Assembly: GCA_012959605.1 (NCBI GenBank)
Contig: DUCU01000066.1
Span: forward strand, 15,319-79,318
DNA length: 64,000 bases
Reading direction: 5' to 3'
Origin: Dehalococcoidia bacterium
GTDB taxonomy: Bacteria > Chloroflexota > Dehalococcoidia > Lucifugimonadales > UBA3495
Each line of letters opens with the position of its first letter. Position 1 is the stretch's first letter. Position numbers and translations under genes: made by a program. The notes under the pieces are model-generated. The model ran no database searches. It was not told where the DNA came from and worked only from the letters and a program-made list of their open reading frames with translations. Below are positions 5,461-36,607 of this stretch, piece after piece.

Positions 5461-6933
5461 ATGGAATACGAAACAGTCATTGGCCTAGAAGTACACGTCC
5501 AACTGCGGACCCAGAGCAAGATGTTTTGCTCCTGCCGGGCCGATTACCAGACCGCACCCGCGAACAGCCGAGTTTGTCCCGTATGCCTCGGTCTGCCGGG
5601 AACCCTACCGGTCATCAACAAGAAGGCCGTTGAGTTCACCATCATGACCGGCTTGGCCTTGGGCTGTGAAATACCCAAACTGACCAAGTTTGACCGCAAG
5701 AACTACCCCTACCCGGACCTGATGAAGGGGTACCAGATATCTCAGTTTGATCTGCCATTGGCCTTGAACGGCGAGATGGACATCACCGCCGACGGCCAGG
5801 ACCGAACGGTCCGCGTGGAACGAGTCCACCTGGAAGAGGATGTTTCCAAGCTCCAGCACGTTAGTGATGAAAACGATGACCCCCATAGCCTGGTCGACGT
5901 GAACCGCTCCGGAGTTCCACTCATGGAGGTAGTTAGCCACCCGGACATGCGCACTCCGGAAGAAGCCCGTTCTTACCTGACCAAGCTGCACTCGATTATC
6001 CAATACTTAGGAGTTTCCACCGCTAACGCCCAGGATGGCAGCTTCCGTTGCGATGCCAACATCAGCCTGCGGCCGGTGGGACAGAAAGAATACGGCACCA
6101 AGGCTGAGATTAAGAACATGAACAGCCTCCGGGCAGTATTCATGGCCCTGAACCACGAACAGGAACGCCAAAAGAGAGTCCTGGATTCAGGAGAACGCGT
6201 CATTCAGGAGACTCGTGGCTGGTCTGAGGAGCGTAGCGCGACGTATTCTCAGCGCAGCAAGGAAGAGGCTCACGACTATCGGTATTTCCCAGAGCCAGAC
6301 CTGCCCCCTCTAGTGATTGAAGACTCCTGGATCGAAGAACTTAGAAACAATCTTCCTGAGTTGGCTACTGACCGGCTAGCAAGGTTCACAGATCAATACG
6401 GGCTTCCCGAGTACGATGCCAGGCTGTTGACCAACTCCAAGGGCATGGCCGACTACTACGAGCAGGCAACCAGACTCCACGCCACAGACAGCGATAATGG
6501 CCAGAAGTTTGCCAAGAATGTTAGTAACTGGATTCTGGGCGACCTGAGTCGCCTGCTGAACTTGGAAGACCGTCTGATAGACGAATCACCGGTGCCCCCA
6601 GAAAGCCTGGTTGAGTTGATTGACCTGGTGGACAAAGACACGGTTAGCGTATCCATGGCCAAAACGGTCTTGGAAGAAGCCTTTGAATCCGGTGGTTCAC
6701 CGGCGCAGATAGTCCAAGAAAAGGGATATACTCAGATAAGCGATTCTTCCGCTGTCGATGAGGCGGTTGGCCAGGCCATTGACGCCAACCCACAGGCAGT
6801 GGCGGATTACATGGGCGGAAAAGAAACCGCCGCCAAATTCCTGGTGGGCCAGGTGATGAAAATCACCAAGGGTCAGGCCAAGCCCGACCTAGTTAATGAA
6901 CTGGTCGTTGTGGCCTTGGAAAAACTCAAGTAA
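5461..6933 (+). CDS. gatB: Asp-tRNA(Asn)/Glu-tRNA(Gln) amidotransferase subunit B
   Basis: 490 aa with MEYETVIGLEVHVQL..KMFCSC...CPVCLGLPGTLPVIN and a C-terminal YqeY-like tail. No gatA or gatC is adjacent. Confidence 0.95.
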   Translation: MEYETVIGLEVHVQLRTQSKMFCSCRADYQTAPANSRVCPVCLGLPGTLPVINKKAVEFTIMTGLALGCEIPKLTKFDRKNYPYPDLMKGYQISQFDLPLALNGEMDITADGQDRTVRVERVHLEEDVSKLQHVSDENDDPHSLVDVNRSGVPLMEVVSHPDMRTPEEARSYLTKLHSIIQYLGVSTANAQDGSFRCDANISLRPVGQKEYGTKAEIKNMNSLRAVFMALNHEQERQKRVLDSGERVIQETRGWSEERSATYSQRSKEEAHDYRYFPEPDLPPLVIEDSWIEELRNNLPELATDRLARFTDQYGLPEYDARLLTNSKGMADYYEQATRLHATDSDNGQKFAKNVSNWILGDLSRLLNLEDRLIDESPVPPESLVELIDLVDKDTVSVSMAKTVLEEAFESGGSPAQIVQEKGYTQISDSSAVDEAVGQAIDANPQAVADYMGGKETAAKFLVGQVMKITKGQAKPDLVNELVVVALEKLK

Positions 6934-7262: not shown

Positions 7263-8102
7263 ATGAAATCGCCACTGCTGGTATTCACCACCGACTTTGG
7301 GCTGTCCGACGCCTATGCGGGCGTCATGAAGGGCGTAGCCCTCTCCATCAACCCCAACCTCCGCTTCATAGACCTCTCCCACCAGATATTGCCTCAGAAC
7401 GTGGCTCAGGGCTCGTTCCTACTTGGGATCAACCACAAGTATTTCCCGAACCACGCCATCCAAGTCGCTGTAGTTGATCCCGGTGTAGGCACCGACCGCA
7501 GACCCATACTTCTCACCACCCCTTGCGGGAGCTTTGTCGCCCCGGATAACGGCCTGCTCAGCGGGGTGATTTCCAGCTACCTAACATCAGTTTCTGCTGA
7601 AGCTGGCTTGGTAGAACTGCCATCCCCGCTTACAGCGGTGCACCTGACCAACGAGAAATATTGGCGTCACCCAGTCAGTGAGACCTTTCATGGGCGAGAC
7701 GTTTTTACGCCGGTGGCGGCTCACCTGTCACTAGGAGTCGCGCCTGAAGACTTGGGTGAGCCAGTGAGCCGTGTCTTCTTTCTGCCATTGCCTCAGCCTG
7801 TAACGAACGGCGACGAGATTACCGGGCAGGTGATCTACCAAGACGTCTACGGCAACTTAATCACAAATATCTTGGCTGAAACTCTATACGGTTTGGGGAA
7901 CGTCGCAGTTCTGATAAAGAACCGTAGAGTTGCTGGGTTGAGCCGCACCTTCAACGACAATACCCATGTGAATGGGGATGGATTGATCGCGTTGGCTGGC
8001 AGTCATGGTTATTTGGAGGTTGCTGTGGCCAACGGAAACGCAGGAATCCTCTTGGAGGCAGGCGAGGGAGAGCCGGTTACGGCCGTGACTCACTCAAGTT
8101 GA
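7263..8102 (+). CDS. SAM hydroxide adenosyltransferase family protein (DUF62, fluorinase/chlorinase-like)
   Basis: 279 aa with LVFTTDFGLSDAYAGVMKGV..VAVVDPGVGTDRRP..APDNGLLS..FHGRDVFTPVAAHL, hallmark DUF62 motifs. Confidence 0.8.
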   Translation: MKSPLLVFTTDFGLSDAYAGVMKGVALSINPNLRFIDLSHQILPQNVAQGSFLLGINHKYFPNHAIQVAVVDPGVGTDRRPILLTTPCGSFVAPDNGLLSGVISSYLTSVSAEAGLVELPSPLTAVHLTNEKYWRHPVSETFHGRDVFTPVAAHLSLGVAPEDLGEPVSRVFFLPLPQPVTNGDEITGQVIYQDVYGNLITNILAETLYGLGNVAVLIKNRRVAGLSRTFNDNTHVNGDGLIALAGSHGYLEVAVANGNAGILLEAGEGEPVTAVTHSS

Positions 8103-22450: not shown

Positions 22451-22624
22451 TTTCTAGACTGAAAGTGGGTAGTTTAGATATTGGCCAACGAGTTTGGCCC
22501 ATAACCCACGCCCACAAAACTGGGTCCATCGAGTTTTACCTGAGAATTTCACCTGAGATTTCCAAGGGAACCAAGACCCTGGCGTCCGTGTCGCAGAATT
22601 GCGACCAAGTGAGGGAGGATGGGA

Positions 22625-25501
22625 ATGCGGTATTCGATATTGCGGCTGCCAATCACACTAATGTTACTGGCTCTGGTTGTGGTGGCCTTCTTCGCCAATC
22701 AATCAAATCTTCATGCGGAAGACGATCACGGTGATTACCGTTTCACTTCCACCAACCTGAGTATTGGTGCTGGGGCTGTTTCTGGCGTCATCAATACCGC
22801 CGACATCCTGTTTGATGTGGACTATTTCTCTTTCCAGGCAAAGAGGGGCGTTCGATACACCTTCCTTTTGGACGAAGTCACGGTGGTTGACGCCAATATT
22901 TCAATAATTAACTCCCTGTCACGCGGCAACAACAGTTCCCCTGAGCAGGAACTTACGGTTTCGGGCGGTCAAAAGACTGTCGACTGGATTGCCAGGACCA
23001 CTGATACCTACTACGTGGAAGTCGCCGGGACTATCAACGCGTTTGACGGTTCTTTCTACCTGGGTGACTACACCATCAGCGGATTTGAAGATACCAGCCT
23101 GCTGGATCGGCACTCCGACGAGCGCAACGGCGCAACCAGTATCTCCCCAGGAAACGTTTACCAGGGTGCGGTTAGTCCTTGGAGTAACCAGCCCAGCCTA
23201 GCCAGCACCGTTGACGGCGGAGACGACTTCGATTTCTATTCGTTCCAAGCCCAACGTGGCGTGAAATACAACGTTGAGGTCGACCTAGCCACATCTGAAG
23301 GAGTTGAGATAGCCATCCACACCACTTTTGCCGGCATCGAGAAGACCAGCGACGGCATTGGCAGCACGCTGAGTTGGATATCTCCAAACAACGACACGTA
23401 TTACGTGTCTGTATCCGGAACGAGTCGGGTGCGCGATTCCAATGGCACCTACGCCATCAAGCTGAATGCCGAGACCGACCTTCTCGACCACCACACAGAT
23501 TCCGTGACCGGAGCAACCGTAGTCAGCTTTGGCAATGCCCACCAGGGCTCGATTAGCCCGGCCAATGACCTAGATTACTTCTCCTTCCCCGCCCTGCGCG
23601 GCGTTAAATACATGATGGAAGCATCTCTAGGCAGCGCTGACGGTGTTAATCTCACCATAATCGACGCTGACCAAACCAGCCTGGCTTCCAATGGCGGTGT
23701 GGGCACCAGTCTAGAGTGGCTGGCTCCTGCCAATGGCACTTTTCTAGCGATAGTCTCAGCCTCGCCCCAGGTCCCCAATGTTATTGGAACCTATTCTTTA
23801 AACCTGAGCAGCGATACCACCCTACAGGACCACCACGGTGATTCCACTGGGGCGGCATCTGTCCTCAGCTTTGGCAACGCTCATCAGGGTGCGGTCAGCC
23901 CCAATACCGACCGAGACTACTTCATGTTCCCGGCAGAACGAGGGGTCAACTACACATTGGAGTTGGACCTGCTGACCGCCGACGGTGCAGTCATATCCAT
24001 AGAGAACCCCGCAGGAGACACACTGAGCAGCACCAACGGCCTGGGCACTGGTCTAGGTTGGACGGCGGCCAGTACCGGCTTGTTCTACGTGGTGGTGTCC
24101 CATTCACCCCAGGCAAATGAGGGCATCGGCACTTACGCGTTAACAGTCTCAGCCAACACCAGCTTGGAAGACCGTCACTTGGACACGGCTTCAAGTGGCA
24201 CTCCTCTGAGTTTTGGCACTATCTATCAGGGAGCGATCAGCCCCCAGTCTGACTTGGATTATTTCTCATTCCCCGCTGAGCGCGGAGTTGAATATCTGCT
24301 GGACATGACTTATGGGTCAGCAACGGCAGTTTCATTTGAAGTAAGCAGTTTGGACGGGAGTTCAGATAGCGGCGCTCGTAACTTCGGAGAGAGCAACATT
24401 ATCCGATGGACGTCTCCGGACTCGGGCACCTATTACGTCAGGGTTTCAGCCTCGGCAAAAGCACTGGAACCAACAGGTACGTACACACTGAAGGTCACGC
24501 CTGATCTGGCACTGCAAGATCGGCATAGCGACGCTGCCAGCAATGGCACTCGCATCGGATTTGGCAACGCCATCAGAGGCGCCATCAGCCCGTTAACCGA
24601 CTATGACTATTTCGAGTTCACCGCAGAGCAGGGAATCACCTACACCGTAGATGTGAGACCTGAAACCGCCGAAGGCGTCCGGTTCTCAGTTGAGAGCCAA
24701 ATAGTAGGTTTCTCCATTTCCAACTTCGGCCTGGAACAATCTCTGGAGTGGGAGGCCCCAACATCGGGGGCATACATACTCGCCGTATCGGCCTCCGAAC
24801 GAGTGGGCAAGTCCGTTGGCACTTATTCCATCACCGTCAACCGACAAAGTGACGCGCGACCTGAGGTACCCAAGGTAATCGAACCGGATCCAGAACCGGT
24901 GCCAGATATACCCCTACCCAAGATCATCGCCCCAGACGGGACCGCAATGATCCTTGAGTCCAGGGTTTCACCGTTGGGGAGCATTGTCCGGGTTCCGGTG
25001 GAACTGAGCCAAGCGTCGGGTATCACCAGTCTTGGGTTCACGCTGAACTACGACCCCAACGCACTCCGAGTGTTCAACGTAGAACGGGGTTCCAGACTAA
25101 CTGAGGACTCATTCAGCTATGACAATGATTTACCGGGACAGGTGCGGTTTGGATTTGCCGTGACTCAGGGTTCAGAATCCAGTGGTACTGCGGCCGTTGT
25201 GTCCTTCCAGGTAGTAGGGGCTGAGGGTTCAGTTAGCCCAATCACCCTATCAGACGCCTTGGTAAATCACCGAGCCGAGGGTCCTTTGACTGTGGAACTG
25301 GTTGGAGCTGACTTCAGAGTCGGTTCCAAGATACTGGGCGACGCCGATGGCGACAGTCTAGTTACAGCGCTGGACGCTTTGCTGGCCCTGAAGATGGCCG
25401 CAGGCGGCACCAGGATAGACCTTTCCTTGGACGTCAACAATGACGGCAAGATTACCATTGATGACGCCCGAATAATTCTGAACATGGCCCGACCTAGTTA
25501 G
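22625..25501 (+). CDS. secreted protein: signal peptide, 6 PPC-like repeats, Pro-rich linker, cohesin domain and dockerin domain
   Basis: The ORF runs 22619..25501. The GGAGG at 22614..22618 abuts ATG 22619, so ATG 22625 is the likelier start. The signal peptide is LRLPITLMLLALVVVAFFANQSNLHA. Domain details are in the separate entries below. Confidence 0.8.
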   Translation: MRYSILRLPITLMLLALVVVAFFANQSNLHAEDDHGDYRFTSTNLSIGAGAVSGVINTADILFDVDYFSFQAKRGVRYTFLLDEVTVVDANISIINSLSRGNNSSPEQELTVSGGQKTVDWIARTTDTYYVEVAGTINAFDGSFYLGDYTISGFEDTSLLDRHSDERNGATSISPGNVYQGAVSPWSNQPSLASTVDGGDDFDFYSFQAQRGVKYNVEVDLATSEGVEIAIHTTFAGIEKTSDGIGSTLSWISPNNDTYYVSVSGTSRVRDSNGTYAIKLNAETDLLDHHTDSVTGATVVSFGNAHQGSISPANDLDYFSFPALRGVKYMMEASLGSADGVNLTIIDADQTSLASNGGVGTSLEWLAPANGTFLAIVSASPQVPNVIGTYSLNLSSDTTLQDHHGDSTGAASVLSFGNAHQGAVSPNTDRDYFMFPAERGVNYTLELDLLTADGAVISIENPAGDTLSSTNGLGTGLGWTAASTGLFYVVVSHSPQANEGIGTYALTVSANTSLEDRHLDTASSGTPLSFGTIYQGAISPQSDLDYFSFPAERGVEYLLDMTYGSATAVSFEVSSLDGSSDSGARNFGESNIIRWTSPDSGTYYVRVSASAKALEPTGTYTLKVTPDLALQDRHSDAASNGTRIGFGNAIRGAISPLTDYDYFEFTAEQGITYTVDVRPETAEGVRFSVESQIVGFSISNFGLEQSLEWEAPTSGAYILAVSASERVGKSVGTYSITVNRQSDARPEVPKVIEPDPEPVPDIPLPKIIAPDGTAMILESRVSPLGSIVRVPVELSQASGITSLGFTLNYDPNALRVFNVERGSRLTEDSFSYDNDLPGQVRFGFAVTQGSESSGTAAVVSFQVVGAEGSVSPITLSDALVNHRAEGPLTVELVGADFRVGSKILGDADGDSLVTALDALLALKMAAGGTRIDLSLDVNNDGKITIDDARIILNMARPS
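22721..24844 (+). repeat. six tandem protein-level repeats of about 112-126 aa (pre-peptidase C-terminal/PPC-like)
   Basis: Each unit opens with D-(H/R)-H-x-D (DDHGD, DRHSD, DHHTD, DHHGD, DRHLD, DRHSD). Each then has G.A..(L/V)SFGN..QGA(I/V)SP..D.DYF.F.A.RGV.Y, then TYYV.VS, then GTY.L. The units are divergent at DNA level. Confidence 0.75.
24932..25318 (+). other. cohesin-like domain (approximate bounds)
   Basis: VRVPVELSQASGITSLGFTLNYDPNALRVFNVERGS...GQVRFGFAV...GTAAVVSFQVVGAEGSVSPITLS follows the recalled cohesin pattern (v.v.v..g.qf.l.YDp..l....v..G...i.F...G.G.la...F.v). Confidence 0.6.
25337..25489 (+). other. dockerin-like domain (two EF-hand-like Ca-binding segments)
   Basis: GDADGDSLVTALDALLALKMAAG and LDVNNDGKITIDDARIILNMA form a duplicated DxDxDG...D plus helix arrangement, typical of type-I dockerins. 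Confidence 0.65.
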
Positions 25502-25512
25502 GGGAGTAGATT

Positions 25513-26193
25513 ATGCGCTGGATGTTAGAAGTAGCATTTATCGGCTTATCCACCAGTTGGAAATGGTTGCTTGGCTCAACGGCCGCGGTCGCAATTCTGG
25601 TGGGATTATTGTTCGGAGTGGGAGTTTTGGGTGGCGGTGACAGTAGCGACACTGATCCTGGCGGGCCTTTTGTTGCCGCCCCGCCAACACCAAGTCCCGC
25701 TCCTAACGCGACACCAAGGCCCGCTCCTAAGGCGACACCAAGGCCAACTCAGGCGGTTGCTGCAACACCAGTGCCTTCGGCTACGCGGGTGCCCGCAGCG
25801 CCGGCCAAGGTGATCTCAGTGCCCATATTGGCCACCCGGGCCGCCAACGTCGGCAGCCTGGAGTTTGTCTTGGTCTACGACCCGGCCAAGCTGGAATTTG
25901 CCCAGGTTGAACGTGGCCTGTTGTCCGGTGATGCCTTGATCGACTCTAGTTCATCAGAGCCAGGCCGACTTTGGGCTGGCATCATCGATATGCAGGGGAT
26001 TAACGGTAGCGGCCCGGTGGCCGTGGTGAAATTTCGAGTGCGCGACGGTGTATCTGGGGCCATGCCTCTAAGTTTGGAGAGTATCGCGGCGTTTGATGCC
26101 AATACACTGGTCGACATTGTCACTGGGACCACAGATGGGGAGTTCAATGTCACAGAGCTCCATCCCCTGTCGCCCATAGTCACTTTCCAATAA
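25513..26193 (+). CDS. membrane-anchored cohesin-domain protein (TM helix, Pro/Thr linker, cohesin)
   Basis: 226 aa. GGGGAG lies 6 nt upstream, and the gene starts 11 nt after the upstream stop. It has a TM helix (AAVAILVGLLFGVGVLGG), a PT-rich linker and a cohesin-like VGSLEFVLVYDPAKLEFAQVERG..GPVAVVKFRVRDGVSGAMPLSL (about 25807..26151). Confidence 0.7.
   Translation: MRWMLEVAFIGLSTSWKWLLGSTAAVAILVGLLFGVGVLGGGDSSDTDPGGPFVAAPPTPSPAPNATPRPAPKATPRPTQAVAATPVPSATRVPAAPAKVISVPILATRAANVGSLEFVLVYDPAKLEFAQVERGLLSGDALIDSSSSEPGRLWAGIIDMQGINGSGPVAVVKFRVRDGVSGAMPLSLESIAAFDANTLVDIVTGTTDGEFNVTELHPLSPIVTFQ
25696..25743 (+). repeat. 24-nt tandem duplication in the linker (PAPNATPR/PAPKATPR)
   Basis: CCCGCTCCTAA(C/G)GCGACACCAAGG occurs twice back to back with one mismatch. 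Confidence 0.85.
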
Positions 26194-26984: not shown

Positions 26985-28058
26985 ATGCACGTTGGATCGT
27001 CTACCTTTTTCCAGAACCACCGCCAGGCAATGACCGACTTGGAGATCTATCGGAACGAGCTGCGCCTGGCCGACATGGTTGAACCGTTGGGCTTCGACTC
27101 AATCTGGGGGGTGGAACACCATTTCACCGACTACACCATGTGCCCAGACGTTCTGCAGTTTCTTTCCTACATGGCCGGACGAACCCAAACGGTGCAACTA
27201 GGTAGCATGGTGGTGGTTCTGCCCTGGCACGACCCGCTTAGGGTAGCTGAGCAATTCTCCGTGCTTGACCATCTTAGCGCCGGAAGGGCGATAATCGGCG
27301 TTGGCCGGGGTCTGGCCAGAGTTGAATTTGATGGATTCAAGATAGAGATGTCAGAGTCCAGGGCCAGGTTCGCGGAGAGCACCAAGTTATTGGTTGATGC
27401 CCTTGAAGAGGGCTTCGCCGAGTTCCAGGGTGAACTGATCAAACAGCCTAGGGTGGAAATCAGGCCCAGACCCTACAAGAGTTTCAAGGGCCGGACTTAC
27501 GCTGCCGCAGTCTCTCCGGAATCTTCGTTGGCGCTGGCCCAATTGGGCCTCGGCATGTTGATCATCCCCCAGAAGCCGTGGAGCGAGGTTGAAGCCGAAC
27601 TCAAGTCCTACCGAGAGATCTACCAGGAGATCAATGGCGAGCCAGCACCGCCTCCGATAGTGGTCGGGTTCACGTTCTGTCACGAAGACGAAGAAACGGC
27701 CCGAGAGATGGCCAGCGAGTATATCGGCAATTACTGGGACTCGATAATGGACCACTACGAGTTCCACAGTGACCACCTGAAAGAGACCAAGGGCTACGAG
27801 TACTACGGCAAGTTCACCGAGAAGATAGAACAATACGGAAACCAGGACGTGAAGGACTTCTTTCTGGACCTGCAGGTATGGGGAACTCCCGACCAGTGCT
27901 ACGAAAAGATCATGAAAACTCGAGGCCGTACCGGAAGCGAATCATACATAGGCGCGTTTAGTTTTGGCGGAATGCCCTACGGTGAGGTTGAAAAGAGCAT
28001 GAAACTCTTCGCCGAAAAGGTGATGCCCAGGCTGAAAGGAGTACTGGCTGCGGTGTAA
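26985..28058 (+). CDS. LLM-class (luciferase-like) flavin-dependent monooxygenase
   Basis: 357 aa with GFDSIWGVEHHF, LDHLSAGRAIIGVGRG and an overall bacterial-luciferase TIM-barrel pattern. Confidence 0.8.
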   Translation: MHVGSSTFFQNHRQAMTDLEIYRNELRLADMVEPLGFDSIWGVEHHFTDYTMCPDVLQFLSYMAGRTQTVQLGSMVVVLPWHDPLRVAEQFSVLDHLSAGRAIIGVGRGLARVEFDGFKIEMSESRARFAESTKLLVDALEEGFAEFQGELIKQPRVEIRPRPYKSFKGRTYAAAVSPESSLALAQLGLGMLIIPQKPWSEVEAELKSYREIYQEINGEPAPPPIVVGFTFCHEDEETAREMASEYIGNYWDSIMDHYEFHSDHLKETKGYEYYGKFTEKIEQYGNQDVKDFFLDLQVWGTPDQCYEKIMKTRGRTGSESYIGAFSFGGMPYGEVEKSMKLFAEKVMPRLKGVLAAV

Positions 28059-28059
28059 C

Positions 28060-29235
28060 CTATTCGCCCGTGTAGCGAATTTCCTCGCTTTTTAACTCAC
28101 CCAGCGAACGCCATGCAAAACGTTTGGTGTAAGGATTCTCGATTCCTTCCAAAGCATCTGCAGCCAGTCCGCCCAGCACCGGGCCAAACTTAAAAGCGTG
28201 GCCGCTGCCGCCGGTGGAGACCACCAAGCCCTGCCGGGCAGGGTCTCGGCCAATCCAGAAATCCCCATCCCAGGTGTCGCAGTAGAGGCACATTTTGCTG
28301 CCGTAAAGTGGGAGCGCCGCCAGAGAGGGCAGAGACTCGGCCAAGAACGCCCGGCAATGAGCTTCCTGCTCTGGTAGCGTCAATCTATCCGCGTCAGGGT
28401 GAACCCTGCGGCCTGGCCCATGGTTGGCCATCTTGACCACTCCCTCACAGTTGGCCGGGAATCCGTACCAGCCGGTTCGTGGGATGTCCGCGCCCCAAGG
28501 TGGAAATGATGGCGCGCGGTAGTTTTCCGGATTTGACGGCTTGAAGTAGAAGATGGGCTGTCCTACCGGCCACATCCGGTCGGCAAGGTCTGGTAGCAAA
28601 ACCGTAGTCCACACCCCGGCGGCCACCAACACCCACTCAGCCAGCAATTCCCGACCGTCTGATGCCGCTGCACCGGTTACTCGATCACCATTCTGTACCA
28701 ACCGAGTCGCTGCGAAGCCAGTCACGATTGAAACACCAGAATCGATTGCGTCGTGGGCCAGGGCAGCAGTAATTTCGGCAGCTGCCGCCCAACCTGCCCT
28801 TGGGTTGAAGTACCCGTCTATGTAGTGGTCTGCGTTCCAATGAGGGTAACGACTGGCCAGGTCTCCGGCTAGTAGCTTTTCAATGGGGAAGCCACGCTCA
28901 GTCAGGAGCGAGTACGAGTCCTGCTCAAACGACCCAGAAGCCATCGGCACGCTGGTCATGAGCAGAAACCCGTCTTCGTGGTAAAGGTCTCTGCCCCAAC
29001 GGGCGTTCCAGCGGTGCCAACCTTCAATGGCCTCAGCGCCCAACGACGAATAAAGGCCATCGGCACCGTAGTCCAGGCGCACCATGCGGCTGACGTCGTT
29101 GGATGCCGCCAGTGGATGAGGAACCGGCCCCGGATCCGCCACCGTGACTCGGTAGCCGCGTTGCCGCAATTCCAAGGCGGCGGTCAGCCCAAATATGCCA
29201 GCCCCAATCACCAGTACTGAGTTGTCAGCAAGCAC
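28060..29235 (-). CDS. FAD-dependent oxidoreductase (DAO/sarcosine-oxidase-like family)
   Basis: 391 aa with VLVIGAGIFGLTAALELRQRGYRVTVAD (dinucleotide-binding fold) and a C-terminal GGSGHAFKFGPVLG. Confidence 0.75.
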   Translation of the reverse strand: MLADNSVLVIGAGIFGLTAALELRQRGYRVTVADPGPVPHPLAASNDVSRMVRLDYGADGLYSSLGAEAIEGWHRWNARWGRDLYHEDGFLLMTSVPMASGSFEQDSYSLLTERGFPIEKLLAGDLASRYPHWNADHYIDGYFNPRAGWAAAAEITAALAHDAIDSGVSIVTGFAATRLVQNGDRVTGAAASDGRELLAEWVLVAAGVWTTVLLPDLADRMWPVGQPIFYFKPSNPENYRAPSFPPWGADIPRTGWYGFPANCEGVVKMANHGPGRRVHPDADRLTLPEQEAHCRAFLAESLPSLAALPLYGSKMCLYCDTWDGDFWIGRDPARQGLVVSTGGSGHAFKFGPVLGGLAADALEGIENPYTKRFAWRSLGELKSEEIRYTGE

Positions 29236-29289
29236 GATAATCTACGGGCAATTTGGATTGCCTCAGGCCTAGCTGGTCAATCAAGACAA

Positions 29290-29898
29290 TCACCCCGCGG
29301 AAGCAGATTTGATGGTCGCTCTAAGATCGTCGATGCTAATGTCTCCGCCCAGCAATTCCCCGCCAATGAGATAGGTGGGAGTTCCGCCCACCCCAGCCTC
29401 TTTAGCCGCTTCGTGATCCTGCATCACGGCGTCTCGAAACTCACCTGCTTCAATTCGAGGGGCAAGGTCAACCCAGTCCATGCCAGAAGCGGTCACTATC
29501 TCTTGCAACACGTCCAAGTCGTTGATGTCGGCGCCAGACTCCCAGTAAGCCGCAGCAGCCAGGTGGTGGAACTCACCGTCTTTACCCTTTTCTTTGGCGT
29601 ACGCAGTGATCTCGTGCGCACGTTTCGTGTTTGGTGACCATTGCGGGCGGTGCATCTCCAATCCAACGCCTTTGGCCCGTTCTTGCATCCCGGCGTTGAG
29701 TTCGGTTTCGGTCTCGCCGTCAAACAGCCGACGAGGCTCTCCCTCCGCAGGTCTTTCCGGGCGAAGTAGATACGGTCTGCGATCTACATCAATGGACAAC
29801 TCCGATGACAACATGTCGAGCCTACCCAGGCCGACGTAGCAATAGGGTCAAGTGTAGTCGTACCAAACGGTGACATTAACGGGATTAGAAGTGGCCAT
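29290..29898 (-). CDS. DsbA/FrnE-like thiol:disulfide oxidoreductase, candidate selenoprotein (in-frame TGA read as Sec)
   Basis: The ORF track begins at Met 29814 and so lacks the redox motif. In the same frame upstream: ATG 29898, MATSNPVNVTVWYDYT, TGA (29850..29848), PYCYVGLGRLD, Met 29814. This restores the family signature W.D..C-P-x-C-Y-(I/V)-G with U-P-Y-C. GAGAGG lies 6 nt upstream of ATG 29898. Confidence 0.6.
29815..29835 (-). promoter_or_regulatory. bSECIS-like hairpin 12 nt downstream of the TGA
   Basis: The mRNA GUCGGCCU-GGGU-AGGC(U)CGAC folds by hand into 8 bp with one bulged U and a G-rich apical loop. The loop lies about 20 nt from the UGA. Confidence 0.45.
29848..29850 (-). 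other. in-frame TGA codon at the first Cys position of the CxxC motif (candidate Sec codon)
   Basis: The plus strand reads tca at 29848..29850, which is TGA on the coding strand. It is flanked by ..YDYT and PYCY.. Confidence 0.6.
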
Positions 29899-29995
29899 TT
29901 TCTACCTCTCTACTGTGGGTTGATCGGGGGAATATCTAAGCCAGGAGCGATTTCGGAACATTGTAGCACGCACGTTTCCTGACTAATTCCAGAAA

Positions 29996-30036
29996 ATGAA
30001 AAAGGCCGTTGTGAGACTCACAACGGCCTTTTTTAA
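29996..30036. terminator. bidirectional intrinsic terminator after the esterase gene
   Basis: GGCCGTTGTGA (30004..30014) pairs with TCACAACGGCC (30018..30028). An A-run lies before the hairpin and TTTTTT after it. Confidence 0.8.
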
Positions 30037-30056
30037 TTACTGCAAGTCCCGACTGT

Positions 30057-31007
30057 TTAGTCGGCGGCGCTTGGTGAGCCGGCCTTGGAAAAGGCGTTTC
30101 GCAGGGCGGCAGACGCCTCGTCCACTGCCTGCTGTCCCTTGTCCACCACGGCTCCCATGCTGAAGAAGCCGTGAATCACACCGTCATACCGAGTGGCGGT
30201 GGTCTCCACACCAGCTTCACTCAGTCGTTTGGCGTAGGCCTCTCCCTCGTCGCGTAGTGGGTCGAATTCTCCCGTAATCACCAACGCCGGTGGCTGTCCG
30301 ACCAGACTCTTGGCCTGTAGCGGGGCCGCATAGGGGTTTGAAGCATCCTCTTCATTGGCCAAGTAATGCTCCCAGTACCACTGCATGCCAACCTTGGTCA
30401 GTGAATAACCTTCGGCATTATCGTTGTAGGAAACGGTGTTGTAATTGACATCGGTAACCGGGTAGATCAGGACCTGGAGCGCAATCTCTGGGCCACCTCT
30501 ATCGGCTGCCATCAGCGCCATGGCCGCGGCCAAGTTGCCGCCTGCGCTATCGCCGCCAACGGCCAGCCGAGCGGGGTCACCGTTGATCGCCGCGGCGTTA
30601 TTCACCGCCCAGGTTGTTGCGGCCCAGCAGTCATCAGCGGGACCAGGGAATTTGGTGTCAGGCGCTAATCGATAATCTACCGAGACGACGATGCATTGGC
30701 CGCCCACACATAAGCTGCGTGCGGATCCATCAGCCGATTCTAAATCGCCCACCACCCAACCACCACCGTGGAACCAGGCCAGGATGGGGAACGGGCCATC
30801 GCCCTCCGGAGTGTAGATGCGCACCGGAACGTCGCTGTCGGGGCCGGGGATGGTCCGGTCTTCCACCTTGGCCACTTCAGGGCCGGGAGAACGCTTCCGG
30901 AGCTTGGAGTTGGCTCGAGCTACTTCCGGGCTAACGGTATCGGCCGGCGGCAGACCAAGGGCTGCCACGGTTTCCATCACCTGTATTATCTGTGGGTCTA
31001 ACGGCAT
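30057..31007 (-). CDS. alpha/beta hydrolase, hormone-sensitive-lipase-type esterase (family IV)
   Basis: 316 aa with the HGGGW oxyanion motif, the GDSAGG nucleophile elbow, and DPLRDEG..HGF. Confidence 0.85.
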   Translation of the reverse strand: MPLDPQIIQVMETVAALGLPPADTVSPEVARANSKLRKRSPGPEVAKVEDRTIPGPDSDVPVRIYTPEGDGPFPILAWFHGGGWVVGDLESADGSARSLCVGGQCIVVSVDYRLAPDTKFPGPADDCWAATTWAVNNAAAINGDPARLAVGGDSAGGNLAAAMALMAADRGGPEIALQVLIYPVTDVNYNTVSYNDNAEGYSLTKVGMQWYWEHYLANEEDASNPYAAPLQAKSLVGQPPALVITGEFDPLRDEGEAYAKRLSEAGVETTATRYDGVIHGFFSMGAVVDKGQQAVDEASAALRNAFSKAGSPSAAD

Positions 31008-35156: not shown

Positions 35157-36607
35157 TTACCGGGCGATGAAGCTAGTTTCTTCGCCGTTCACTGACACGG
35201 TGTAAGTGCGACCGGTTTCAAAGACATCACCCAATGAGATCACTGATTCCACCGTCGGATAATCGGTAGTGCAGGGCACGTTTTGCGCCTCGATTTCCAG
35301 ATGAGTAACGGTGACTTCCACGCGGTCAAAGAACCGTCTGTTGATCTCGTCGCCGTTGAATTTTGAGCACGCACTCCCCAGAGATAGGCCCGAAACCACA
35401 ATTAGCTGATAGCCATCGTCAGTTTCGTCCAACATTACACTCTGAATGGGAGATTCTTTCTCTGCCATCGCCTGTCCATCTGATTGCGGGACAGTGAACA
35501 AGAGAGTCAATTTGCCGTTGACCGTTACTGGGTATTCATCTTCCGCAGTCAGTGCTCTGCACAAGGTCACTTTGCTTCCGTGGTAGCCGTAGATAGCGGT
35601 GCACATGATGGGCTCTTTCGGGTTGGCACCAGGTTCGTTACATCAACCACGAACTCGTTGCCAACCTGGCTGACCTCAACGTCGTCGAACTGGGCGGAGC
35701 CGCTCGGCAATCCGGAAGTGATGTCGACGGAGTAGACACCATCAGAACTCTCTGGTGTGACCAGCTTTGCAGATTCAACCGGAGCCGAAACTGAGACCAT
35801 GGCCAGTTCTTCGCTTGGGAAGTTGGTTTCAACTCCGTTGACGACCACGGTATAAGTCGTGCCATCTTCGAATGCAGTTCCAAGGGGAATCTCGGTGATG
35901 ACTACGGGCAAATCACGGGTGCAGGGCACGTTGTCCGCCAAGACCTCTCGGTGACTGACGGAAACTTCTATCCGATCCAAGAGCCGATTGTTCATCGTGT
36001 AACCGCTGAACCTGGAGCAGCTGCTACCCTTGGGAAGTCTGGAGATCACGGATAGGGTGTACCCGCCGTCAGTCTGAGAAACTTCCACCGTCTCCACCGG
36101 TGATTCTTGCTCCACCATGTCCAGACCTACCGCGTCCATAGCGTTGAAGGAAATCGTCAGGTGGTCGTTGACCATCACTGTGTAGGTCTCACCTGCAACC
36201 AAACCACTACCAATGCTTATTTGTCCCTCGTGCATGCCGTATCGTTCCGTGCAGGCCATTTCTAGGCTGGGATGGGGTACCAGATTGTTAACGCTCACCA
36301 CGAACGCGTTGCCTTCTTGATCCAGGCCGTACCCGTTGAATTCGGCACAACCGTTGGGCAGCCCTGAAATGATATTCAAGACGTAATCCCCAACAACATC
36401 GCTGGGTGGGACTACTGAAGCATCTTCAATTGGAGCCGCAACTTCAACCGGAGACGGTTCTACCGTCGGCGGGTCTCCCTTGATTGGCTTGGCCATCGGA
36501 AGCGACTGAACCTGCGGCGTCGCCGATGCGCTACTCCCACAGCCTACTGCAGATAGGATGGCGACCACCGTCACCAATAACATGATTATTCCAATTCTCT
36601 GGTTCAT
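35157..36607 (-). pseudogene. four-domain lipoprotein gene split by a 1-nt frameshift (or sequencing error) near 35616..35620
   Basis: ORFs 35567..36607 and 35157..35606 overlap. The repeat pattern ..NLVP-HPSLE-MACTERYG.. of copy A1 continues in copy A2 only across frames (..NLVPTRK | EPIMCTAIYG..). The shift lies at an AAA run. The N-terminus has signal plus lipobox AVGC. Confidence 0.6.

What the first reader, a model, noticed from the sequence alone, without database searches (positions are those of the whole stretch)
29290..29898. In-frame TGA at the first Cys of the CxxC motif of a DsbA/FrnE-like gene: candidate selenoprotein missed by ORF calling
The ORF track starts this gene at Met 29814 (174 aa), which leaves a DsbA-family protein with no redox motif. 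Reading the minus strand upstream in the same frame gives ATG(29898) MATSNPVNVTVWYDYT-TGA(29850..29848)-PYCYVGLGRLD-M(29814). The family signature W.D..C-P-x-C-Y-(I/V)-G is rebuilt exactly if the TGA encodes the first redox residue (U-P-Y-C). A GAGAGG Shine-Dalgarno lies 6 nt upstream of ATG 29898. Twelve nt after the TGA the mRNA can fold as GUCGGCCU-GGGU-AGGC(U)CGAC: 8 bp, one bulged U and a G-rich loop, at 29835..29815. This spacing and shape resemble bacterial SECIS elements. Sec-for-Cys replacement in the CxxC of thioredoxin-fold proteins, including DsbA-like families in marine metagenomes, is established. The alternative explanation is a TGC-to-TGA pseudogene. TGA is a genuine stop elsewhere in the window, for example at 8100..8102.
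Basis: partly seen in the sequence, partly recalled or inferred. Interest (0 to 1): 0.8.

Follow-up and report, generated by a model that had tools for sequence, protein, structure and literature searches.

The report
Selenocysteine FrnE/DsbA-like oxidoreductase, mis-annotated truncated
This is a real but already familiar kind of gene: a cytoplasmic FrnE/DsbA-like redox enzyme whose first active-site residue is selenocysteine encoded by UGA, which gene callers cut short in this genome and in all 53 related Dehalococcoidia genomes examined.

Summary
On the minus strand, ATG 29898 opens a 202-codon frame with an in-frame TGA at 29850..29848 (codon 17), giving U-P-Y-C.

- **Conservation:** All 53 related Dehalococcoidia/Chloroflexota loci (52-77% identity) carry TGA at this codon, never TAA, TAG or TGC. 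Upstream codons show conserved amino acids with varying synonymous sites, and a start codon with a Shine-Dalgarno is usually present.
- **Cys alignment:** The TGA aligns with the invariant first Cys of CxxC in Cys homologues and in FrnE (PDB 5CNW).
- **Hairpin:** The hairpin at 29835..29815 meets the published bacterial SECIS constraints. It is present in all 54 sequences. Only 5% of 74 Cys-form homologues have such a hairpin, which equals background.
- **Synonymous sites:** They are frozen around the UGA and hairpin (diversity 0.22 versus 0.52, p = 2e-6).

Pseudogene and internal-start readings are effectively excluded.

The one untested item is selA/selB/selD/tRNA-Sec in the same genome. None lies in the 64 kb, and published sponge SAR202 bins do carry SelA and SelB.

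"DsbA-like, COG2761, UxxC" selenoproteins have been known from marine metagenomes since 2005. This is therefore a correct call and an annotation fix, not a new kind of system.

The parts
29290..29898 (-). Full coding sequence of the FrnE/DsbA-like selenoprotein: 202 codons plus the stop. Public gene calls keep only 29290..29814 (174 aa).
   Evidence: Translation is. Pfam DSBA PF01323 matches residues 9-196 of the conceptual protein, covering profile positions 2-190 of 191, E 7.6e-31. tblastn matches to 53 loci start at query residue 1.
29905..29910 (-). Shine-Dalgarno GAGAGG, 6 nt upstream of the start codon.
   Evidence: Read directly. AGAGG, GGAGG or AGGAAG motifs sit at the same place in most relatives.
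29896..29898 (-). ATG start codon.
   Evidence: A start codon at the aligned or a nearby position is present in nearly all of the 53 relatives.
29848..29850 (-). In-frame UGA, codon 17: the inferred selenocysteine and the nucleophilic first residue of the U-P-Y-C redox motif.
   Evidence: TGA is present in 54 of 54 sequences. It aligns with the invariant first Cys in 11 Cys homologues and with the first Cys of FrnE's C-P-W-C motif, which is residues 22-25 (alignment; numbering from PMC8945050). In the model of Cys-form clade member P0068, this residue caps helix alpha1.
29839..29841 (-). TGC, Cys20: the resolving cysteine of the U-x-x-C motif.
   Evidence: Invariant in all Sec and Cys forms aligned.
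29815..29835 (-). Bacterial SECIS-type hairpin lying inside the coding sequence. It has a 4-bp upper stem, a bulged U (29819), a 4-bp lower stem and a GGGU loop (29824..29827). There are 20 nt between the UGA and the loop.
   Evidence: Present in the centroid fold. Pair counts show 92% of cells paired, with one pair varying as C-G, U-A and U-G. It meets the published bSECIS constraints, at -10.0 kcal/mol. Codons here are frozen: Leu CTG 53/53, Arg AGR 54/54, Leu CTC 54/54. A comparable hairpin is found in only 4 of 74 Cys forms.
29377..29379 (-). Codon for Pro174 in G-T-P-T-Y, the position of the cis-proline loop of the thioredoxin fold.
   Evidence: Invariant column P174 in alignment A2. The cis-proline assignment is from general knowledge of thioredoxin-fold proteins.
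29290..29292 (-). TGA used as the true terminator of the same gene.
   Evidence: In-frame read-through beyond it continues for only 2 codons.
30057..31007 (-). Context: upstream neighbour on the same strand, a hormone-sensitive-lipase-type esterase (LipP1 family).
   Evidence: NCBIfam NF058653, 414 bits against a cutoff of 350. A homologue lies next to the DsbA-like gene in 43 of 53 loci.
28060..29235 (-). Context: downstream neighbour on the same strand, 54 nt away, a DAO-family FAD-dependent amine oxidase.
   Evidence: Pfam DAO. Best NCBIfam match is N-methyl-L-tryptophan oxidase, but below its cutoff. A homologue is adjacent in 45 of 53 loci.
26985..28058 (+). Context: convergent luciferase-like (LLM) flavin oxidoreductase.
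   Evidence: A homologue is present in 37 of 53 loci.

Best explanation
The gene encodes a 202-residue cytoplasmic thiol-disulfide oxidoreductase of the FrnE branch of the DsbA family. Its redox motif is U-P-Y-C.

Translation starts at ATG 29898. When the ribosome reaches UGA at codon 17, the hairpin 12 nt downstream (GGGU loop, 20 nt from the UGA) is inferred to bind SelB-GTP-Sec-tRNA(Sec), so that selenocysteine is inserted instead of termination. The second UGA, at the end of the gene, has no such hairpin and terminates normally.

Sec17 sits at the N-terminal cap of helix alpha1 next to the cis-Pro loop. There it would act as the attacking nucleophile, forming a selenenylsulfide with Cys20 during disulfide reduction or isomerisation.

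**Shown here:**
- the conserved UGA;
- coding constraint on both sides of it;
- alignment of the UGA with the catalytic Cys;
- the fold;
- the conserved, family-specific hairpin.

**Inferred:**
- actual Sec insertion;
- presence of the Sec machinery in this genome;
- the substrate.

The conserved same-strand neighbours (esterase upstream, FAD amine oxidase downstream) hint at a shared pathway but do not define it.
For: 1. **TGA conservation.** TGA is present in 54 of 54 sequences spanning 52-77% protein identity to the window. No TAA, TAG or TGC occurs.
2. **Upstream region is translated.** Residues 7, 9 and 10 keep Val, Val and Thr while their codons vary (synonymous diversity 0.51-0.65). W12-x-D14-Y15-T16 is nearly invariant. 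A start codon with a Shine-Dalgarno is conserved.
3. **Alignment with catalytic Cys.** With the UGA entered as X, it falls in the invariant Cys column of 11 full-length homologues. It also aligns with the first Cys of FrnE's C-P-W-C.
4. **Fold.** Pfam DSBA covers residues 9-196. The model of Cys-form clade member P0068 has pLDDT 89, with beta1 at 8-13 and alpha1 from residue 18. The best structural matches are FrnE (TM 0.79-0.82) and SCO1869 (TM 0.84).
5. **Hairpin meets all four published bSECIS constraints** (PMC13188914).
   - Loop 4 nt starting GG, upper stem 4 bp, spacing 20 nt, -10.0 kcal/mol.
   - 41 of 54 pass on the 60-nt MFE fold, against 6.8% of 2213 other TGA triplets in the window and 4 of 74 Cys-form homologues (Fisher p = 1.6e-17).
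6. **Synonymous suppression.** Diversity is 0.22 for residues 14-28 versus 0.52 elsewhere (Mann-Whitney p = 1.9e-6). Arg+9 is always AGR and Leu+10 always CTC.
7. **One compensatory exchange.** One pair varies as C-G 38, U-A 4, U-G 2, with no mismatches.
8. **Not a sequencing error.** The identical sequence occurs on at least 22 contigs from separate assemblies.
9. **TGA is not globally reassigned.** It ends 8 of 60 ORFs, including this gene.
10. **Lineage has Sec machinery.** All five sponge SAR202 bins in PMC5649159 Table S4 carry COG1921 (SelA) and COG3276 (SelB).
Against: - No selA, selB, selD or tRNA-Sec was found in the window or in about 630 kb of flanks of related loci. Whole genomes could not be scanned, so the machinery is unverified for this organism.
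- Single-sequence folding of the 71-nt region is no better than shuffles (z = 0.07).
- True covariation is thin. Only one pair changes on both sides, in four sequences that probably share a single ancestral change. The rest of the support is conservation, and the 54 TGA forms are one clade and so not independent.
- The lower stem exists in two registers.
- The close Cys-form relative P0068 can still fold a shifted hairpin.
- Rfam gives no match, but Rfam has no general bacterial SECIS model.
- No second selenoprotein gene was found in the DNA held.
- There is no experimental evidence of selenium in the protein.
Confidence: 0.9

Rival explanations
1. Pseudogene: a TGC-to-TGA nonsense mutation inactivated a Cys-type FrnE gene, and the upstream codons are decaying remnants.
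For: Gene callers treat it this way, starting the ORF downstream. A Cys form exists in the same clade (P0068).
Against: - TGA is fixed in 54 of 54 species-level genomes down to 52% identity.
- There are no other disruptions apart from a 1-nt insertion in L044.
- Amino acids upstream are conserved while synonymous sites vary.
- A start codon and Shine-Dalgarno are retained.

A dead gene would not keep this pattern.
Confidence: 0.01
2. Two products: UGA terminates a 16-residue leader peptide, and the functional protein is an N-terminally truncated DsbA domain started at an internal codon such as Met29.
For: Met 29814 has a weak purine-rich stretch upstream (GGGUAGG), read directly from the sequence. 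All public calls are 165-180 aa.
Against: - The internal Met is not conserved. Codon +12 is Ile in 33, Lys in 12, Met in 8 and Val in 1 sequence.
- Gene callers pick different starts in different genomes: P0111 starts at the Val22 codon.
- The truncated product would lack strand beta1, the start of alpha1 and the whole redox motif.
- Those 'leader' residues are nevertheless the most conserved part of the N-terminus and match the DsbA profile from position 2.
Confidence: 0.02
3. UGA is read through without selenium. Possible routes are near-cognate Trp or Cys insertion, Cys-tRNA(Sec) under selenium limitation, or a lineage-specific recoding other than SelB/SECIS.
For: The Sec machinery was not shown in this genome. 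TGA is the rarest stop in the window, ending 8 of 60 ORFs at 55% GC.
Against: - TGA still terminates genes, including this one, so the code is not reassigned.
- A hairpin with the bSECIS geometry is conserved and confined to the TGA forms, which points to SelB.
- Sec/Cys pairing at a CxxC nucleophile is the classic signature of a selenoprotein (PMC1088965).
- SAR202 bins carry SelA and SelB.
Confidence: 0.05

Closest known systems
DsbA-like selenoprotein family. Listed as 'DsbA-like protein', COG2761, UxxC in the Sargasso Sea study (2005, PMC1088965); as 'DsbA 1', pfam01323, UxxC in GOS (PMC2398784); and as 'DsbA-like protein form 1', PF01323, UxxC in the 2026 review (PMC13188914).
   Same: - PF01323 domain.
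- Sec at the first position of UxxC, aligned with Cys in homologues.
- A SECIS-like hairpin with G in the apical loop just downstream of the UGA.
- Marine origin.
   Different: I could not compare sequences with the published representatives (AACY01178397, NIP15863.1), so identity of subfamily is inferred and not shown.

The Dehalococcoidia clade described here is almost wholly Sec-type: 54 of 54 genomic loci, with one Cys cluster (P0068). It sits in a conserved cluster of esterase, FAD oxidase and LLM oxidoreductase. The library searches found no paper describing this.
FrnE of Deinococcus radiodurans (DR_0659; PDB 5CNW, 5CP1, 5CO3), a cytoplasmic DsbA-family disulfide reductase/isomerase.
   Same: - It is the best sequence match in the PDB (E 9e-19).
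- It is among the best fold matches (TM 0.79-0.82).
- The active-site motif lies near the N-terminus at the cap of alpha1.
- Neither protein has a signal peptide.
   Different: - FrnE has Cys-Pro-Trp-Cys; this protein has Sec-Pro-Tyr-Cys.
- drFrnE carries a C-terminal CXXXXC tail used to regenerate the active site (PMC8945050). This protein stops at residue 202 and has no further Cys.
- In that respect it resembles the tail-less FrnE of S. roseofulvus and D. maricopensis.
- Identity is only about 26%.
E. coli fdhF-type bacterial SECIS and the bSECIS consensus model (PMC13188914, Fig. 2).
   Same: - Hairpin inside the coding sequence immediately 3' of the UGA.
- Small apical loop starting GG.
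- A bulged U in the stem.
- Spacing of 20 nt, within the 16-37 nt range.
- Energy below -7.5 kcal/mol.
   Different: - The hairpin is short, at 21 nt and 8 bp.
- Half of the relatives use a shifted continuous 7-bp register with no bulge.
- Binding to SelB is untested.
2-hydroxychromene-2-carboxylate isomerase and kappa-class glutathione transferases (DsbA-like fold).
   Same: They share the overall DsbA-like fold (TM 0.69-0.74).
   Different: - Matches are weaker (Foldseek E 1e-7 to 1e-6, 16-20% identity) than to FrnE and SCO1869.
- From my own knowledge, not checked here, those enzymes use glutathione and do not use a CxxC dithiol. This protein keeps a complete U-x-x-C motif.

Membership tests
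Bacterial selenoprotein (SelB/SECIS-dependent UGA recoding) | In-frame UGA aligned with Cys in homologues (a Sec/Cys pair) | tested here: met
   X (the UGA) falls in the invariant Cys column of 11 homologues. It aligns with the first Cys of FrnE's CxxC. A Cys form, P0068, exists within the same clade.
Bacterial selenoprotein (SelB/SECIS-dependent UGA recoding) | Protein-level conservation on both sides of the UGA, and conservation of the UGA itself | tested here: met
   TGA is present in 54 of 54 sequences. W-x-D-Y-T upstream and P-x-C-Y-x-G downstream are conserved. Synonymous variation occurs upstream.
Bacterial selenoprotein (SelB/SECIS-dependent UGA recoding) | Hairpin just downstream that meets the bSECIS model: loop 3-9 nt, upper stem at least 4 bp, G in the first two loop positions, 16-37 nt from the UGA, MFE at or below -7.5 kcal/mol | tested here: met
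   Criteria are from PMC13188914. The window hairpin has loop GGGU, a 4-bp upper stem plus 4-bp lower stem, spacing 20 nt and -10.0 kcal/mol. 41 of 54 pass on the MFE fold and 49 of 54 as the isolated hairpin. Only 4 of 74 Cys forms pass.
Bacterial selenoprotein (SelB/SECIS-dependent UGA recoding) | selA, selB, selD and tRNA-Sec in the same genome | not testable with these tools
   None was found in the window or the flanks. Lineage-level support only: SelA and SelB COGs occur in all five SAR202 bins of PMC5649159.
Bacterial selenoprotein (SelB/SECIS-dependent UGA recoding) | Selenium demonstrated in the protein (75Se labelling or mass spectrometry) | not testable with these tools
   This needs an experiment.
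DsbA-like selenoprotein family (PF01323, UxxC; COG2761) | PF01323 DSBA domain above Pfam's threshold | tested here: met
   107.8 bits against a cutoff of 25.6, covering residues 9-196.
DsbA-like selenoprotein family (PF01323, UxxC; COG2761) | UxxC redox motif | tested here: met
   U17-P-Y-C20. The motif is U-P-[YF]-C in all 54 sequences.
DsbA-like selenoprotein family (PF01323, UxxC; COG2761) | Sequence relationship to the published representatives (AACY01178397, NIP15863.1) | not tested
NCBIfam has no model for this family: the only hit is 20 bits against a cutoff of 190 to an unrelated (seleno)lipoprotein model.
FrnE subfamily of DsbA (cd03024), cytoplasmic | DsbA-like thioredoxin fold with the active site at the N-terminal cap of alpha1 | tested here: met
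   Model of clade member P0068: pLDDT 89, beta1 at 8-13, alpha1 from residue 18. Top PDB matches are FrnE and SCO1869, TM about 0.8. The window protein itself was not modelled.
FrnE subfamily of DsbA (cd03024), cytoplasmic | No signal peptide (cytoplasmic location) | tested here: inconclusive
   By inspection only. The motif is at residue 17 and beta1 starts at about residue 8, which leaves no room for a hydrophobic leader. No signal-peptide predictor was run.
FrnE subfamily of DsbA (cd03024), cytoplasmic | C-terminal CXXXXC tail (present in many members but not all) | tested here: not met
   The protein ends at residue 202, and Cys20 is its only Cys. Some accepted FrnE proteins also lack the tail (PMC8945050), so this feature does not exclude membership.
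Periplasmic DsbA (E. coli type) | Signal peptide and export | tested here: not met
   There is no N-terminal leader before beta1. Periplasmic DsbA structures are much weaker fold matches than FrnE.

The most novel reading that the evidence does not exclude
A whole clade of marine and sponge-associated Dehalococcoidia (SAR202-like by gene content) has fixed selenocysteine in a tail-less cytoplasmic FrnE. The gene is embedded in a conserved cluster of esterase, FrnE(U), FAD amine oxidase and LLM monooxygenase. This would imply a selenium-dependent redox or isomerase step coupled to the clade's oxidative catabolism of organic matter, and a selenium requirement for it that current annotation hides completely.
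Probability: 0.12. Interest if true: 0.5.

Novelty: new member of a known kind. Interest (0 to 1): 0.25.

Why it matters
**Annotation.** In this genome, and in every related public genome examined, the gene is called as a 165-180 aa 'DsbA family protein' with no redox motif. NCBIfam has no model that would rescue it. A lineage-wide selenoprotein, and therefore a selenium requirement in abundant marine Dehalococcoidia, is invisible in current databases.

**Biology.** It adds a well-sampled example of a near-completely Sec-fixed FrnE clade with one Cys-type relative. That could be useful for studying Sec/Cys exchange and SECIS constraints inside coding sequence.

It does not reveal a new mechanism.

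Tried and rejected
- **sel genes by tblastn.** The only hit was in L013, and it proved to be a 679-aa EF-G-family GTPase, not SelB.
- **tRNA-Sec.** ARAGORN found none in the window or in any locus.
- **Rfam.** Neither gathering nor permissive thresholds gave a match. This is uninformative, because no general bacterial SECIS model exists.
- **De novo screen for other conserved in-frame TGA genes in 697 kb.** It recovered only the DsbA-like family. All other clusters were Arg/Pro/Ser-rich off-frame translations of syntenic coding DNA.
- **Motif scan for CxxU/UxxC in the window.** Too noisy to use.
- **TGA-terminated ORFs and upstream-TGA ORFs in the window.** No other candidate emerged.
- **Small Cys-form control.** Two of six passed the bSECIS test, which suggested the hairpin might be a by-product of the peptide motif. 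I rejected this after the larger control gave 4 of 74, equal to background.
- **NCBIfam on the protein.** No family reached its cutoff.
Full report
**Observation.**
- On the minus strand the mechanical ORF runs 29814..29290 (174 aa).
- Reading upstream in frame gives ATG 29898, then MATSNPVNVTVWYDYT, TGA at 29850..29848, then PYCYVGLGRLD and Met 29814.
- GAGAGG lies at 29910..29905, 6 nt before the ATG.
- The 21-nt hairpin GUCGGCCU-GGGU-AGGC(U)CGAC occupies 29835..29815 and starts 12 nt after the TGA.
- TGA is a real stop at 8100..8102. It is also the terminator of this very gene at 29292..29290.

**What the protein is.**
- With the TGA read as a residue, the 202-aa product matches Pfam DSBA (PF01323) over residues 9-196, covering profile positions 2-190 of 191, E 7.6e-31. 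The 28 'extra' codons therefore complete the domain.
- The closest solved structure by sequence is FrnE of Deinococcus radiodurans (5CNW/5CP1, E 9e-19). The TGA position aligns with the first Cys of FrnE's C-P-W-C.
- I aligned the protein with 11 full-length Cys homologues, entering the TGA as X to avoid circularity. The X falls in the invariant Cys column. Pro18, Cys20 and Pro174 are also invariant.
- I modelled the full-length Cys-form clade member P0068 (pLDDT 89, pTM 0.84). Strand beta1 is at 8-13 and helix alpha1 starts at residue 18, so residue 17 caps alpha1. This is the usual nucleophile position in thioredoxin-fold enzymes (general knowledge).
- The best fold matches are FrnE (TM 0.79-0.82) and SCO1869 (TM 0.84). 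HCCA isomerase and kappa-class GSTs follow.
- The protein has no room for a signal peptide and no Cys other than Cys20. It therefore lacks the C-terminal CXXXXC tail of drFrnE, as do the FrnE proteins of S. roseofulvus and D. maricopensis (PMC8945050).

**Is the TGA conserved?**
- A protein search returned about 120 clusters at 57-98% identity. Almost all were called at 165-180 aa and covered only 82-89% of the query, so they are cut at the same place. P0068 was the one full-length Cys form.
- A scan of one genome per species found 53 loci in Dehalococcoidia/Chloroflexota MAGs, many of them complete chromosomes, at 52-77% identity.
- All 53, plus the window, have TGA at the aligned codon. None has TAA, TAG or TGC.
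- Upstream, W-[YQH]-D-Y-T is conserved. Residues 7, 9 and 10 keep Val, Val and Thr while their codons vary (synonymous diversity 0.51-0.65). That is the signature of translation in this frame.
- Most loci have an ATG (some a GTG) 12-16 codons before the TGA, preceded by an AGGAGG or AGAGG motif.
- The internal Met that gene callers use is not conserved. That codon is Ile in 33, Lys in 12, Met in 8 and Val in 1.
- The window's exact sequence occurs on at least 22 contigs of separate assemblies, for example GCA_029935915.1. The four contigs fetched (L054-L057) all carry the TGA.

This excludes sequencing error and pseudogene decay. It also makes an internal-start product very unlikely.

**The hairpin.** The published consensus for bacterial SECIS elements requires four things (PMC13188914 Fig. 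2):
- a 3-9 nt apical loop on a 4-16 bp upper stem;
- a G in the first two loop positions;
- 16-37 nt between the UGA and the loop;
- MFE at or below -7.5 kcal/mol.

The window hairpin has a GGGU loop, a 4-bp upper stem plus a 4-bp lower stem separated by a bulged U, 20 nt spacing and -10.0 kcal/mol.
- Across the 54 sequences the same hairpin sits at the same distance.
- 41 pass all constraints on the 60-nt MFE fold, and 49 do so as the isolated 21-mer.
- Background is 6.8% of 2213 other TGA triplets in the window.
- Pair counts show 92% of cells paired against 22-53% for slid controls. One pair varies as C-G 38, U-A 4 and U-G 2 with no mismatch.
- Half of the sequences (GUG instead of GUC) use a continuous 7-bp register instead of the bulged one.
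- Covariation is therefore thin, and the four U-A sequences probably reflect a single event.

**Synonymous-site suppression is the stronger RNA-level signal.**
- Leu+7 is CTG in 53 of 53, Arg+9 is AGR in 54 of 54 (never CGN), and Leu+10 is CTC in 54 of 54. Leu and Arg codons further downstream vary freely.
- Gene-wide, synonymous diversity is 0.22 for residues 14-28 versus 0.52 elsewhere (Mann-Whitney p = 1.9e-6).

**Control with Cys forms.**
- A first sample of six Cys-form homologues was worrying. Two had a hairpin that passed the constraints, and the close relative P0068 could still fold a shifted hairpin although it had lost the AGR and CTC codons.
- A larger sample of 74 distinct Cys forms from metagenomes (27-38% identity) settled it.
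- Only 4 pass (5.4%, equal to background), and only one has its loop at the 20-nt spacing. The equivalent 21 nt average -3.1 kcal/mol.
- The contrast with the TGA forms gives Fisher p = 1.6e-17. The caveat is that the TGA forms are one clade and not independent.

The hairpin goes with the TGA, not with the peptide motif.

**Weak points.**
- Folding of the single 71-nt region is no better than shuffles (z = 0.07).
- Rfam has no match, which is expected because no general bacterial SECIS family exists.
- No tRNA-Sec, selA, selB or selD lies in the window or in the flanks of related loci. The one weak SelB-like hit was an EF-G-family GTPase.
- A de novo screen of 697 kb for other conserved in-frame TGAs recovered only this family, and the window holds no other candidate.
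- At lineage level, Table S4 of PMC5649159 lists SelA (COG1921) and SelB (COG3276) in all five SAR202 bins: bin22, bin127, bin90, bin16 and bin87.
- TGA is not reassigned. It ends 8 of 60 ORFs in the window.

**Mechanism (inferred).** SelB carrying Sec-tRNA(Sec) binds the hairpin as the ribosome reaches UGA17 and inserts Sec. The terminal UGA has no hairpin and terminates. Sec17 attacks substrate disulfides and is resolved by Cys20 through a selenenylsulfide. How the active site is regenerated is unknown, because the CXXXXC tail is absent.

**Gene context.** The gene sits between a LipP1-type esterase (30057..31007) and a DAO-family FAD oxidase (28060..29235) on the same strand. A convergent LLM oxidoreductase lies at 26985..28058. 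Homologues of these neighbours accompany the gene in 43, 45 and 37 of the 53 loci. This suggests a functional link but does not define one.

**Comparison with what is known.**
- 'DsbA-like protein, COG2761, UxxC' was reported as a new selenoprotein family in the Sargasso Sea in 2005, with 9 sequences, Cys homologues and SECIS-like hairpins (PMC1088965).
- GOS listed 'DsbA 1' (pfam01323, UxxC, 63 sequences) as enriched in marine samples (PMC2398784).
- A 2016 survey table gives 41 and 45 for 'DsbA-like protein', which I read as organisms and sequences (PMC5029168).
- The 2026 review lists 'DsbA-like protein form 1, PF01323, UxxC' (PMC13188914).
- COG2761 is the FrnE-type COG (from my own knowledge).
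- The gene therefore meets every sequence-level criterion of that family. Direct comparison with the published representatives was not possible.
- Searches for SAR202 together with selenocysteine found no paper describing this clade.
- The wide protein search shows that the whole clade at 50% identity or above is represented by a truncated form. Full-length Cys relatives appear only at 41% identity or below.

**Verdict.** The gene is a genuine, lineage-wide, mis-annotated selenoprotein of an already described family. It is a useful annotation correction with modest biological interest and no new mechanism.

Noticed in passing
window 26985..31007; L001-L053 flanks: A conserved neighbourhood surrounds the selenoprotein gene. 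It comprises a LipP1/hormone-sensitive-lipase-type esterase, the FrnE(U) gene and a DAO-family FAD oxidase on one strand, plus a convergent LLM flavin oxidoreductase. Homologues accompany the gene in 43, 45 and 37 of the 53 loci. The Cys-form relative P0068 also has the esterase upstream (L058).
   Followed up: partly
whole window: TGA is the rarest stop codon in a greedy set of 60 ORFs (TAA 31, TAG 21, TGA 8), although the window is 55% G+C. The ORF set is mechanical, so the counts are approximate.
   Followed up: no
window 22619..26193 (+): Two adjacent ORFs of about 960 aa and 226 aa carry cohesin domains (PF00963) according to precomputed Pfam hits on the matching public contig. They have no NCBIfam match. 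Homologues are present in only 5 of the 53 related loci.
   Followed up: no
L044 about 6001..6036 (CBDCNN010000002.1): This locus has a 1-nt insertion in the N-terminal codons (ACC-T-GTC where relatives have ACT-GTC). It puts the conserved ATG out of frame with the TGA and the rest of the gene. It is either an assembly indel or a genuine frameshift, and it is the only disrupted copy among the 53.
   Followed up: partly
L036 and L053 (both on CBDCFB010000002.1, 2.18 Mb): The same contig holds two copies of the gene whose aligned N-terminal residues (at least the first 44) differ at a single position. One copy lies at about 1.99 Mb. The other is cut by the contig end. This is either a duplication or an assembly artefact.
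   Followed up: no
L058 2044..2652 (P0068): This is a Cys-type member (TGC) inside the otherwise all-Sec clade, at 59% identity. It has lost the frozen AGR and CTC codons but can still fold a shifted 6-bp hairpin (-8.7 kcal/mol). It may be a recent Sec-to-Cys conversion.
   Followed up: partly
L011-L052, codon 32 after the TGA (residue 49): 29 of the 54 sequences, the subclade with the R-P-D-C-P motif, carry an additional Cys about 32 residues after the Sec. The window protein has Arg there. It could act as an extra resolving or regenerating thiol in that subclade.
   Followed up: no
window 35157..36607 (-): Two overlapping ORFs of 346 and 149 aa both hit PF27154 (ORF11_beta) in the precomputed annotation and have no NCBIfam match. 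The same family is seen next to a distant Cys-form DsbA homologue (L061).
   Followed up: no
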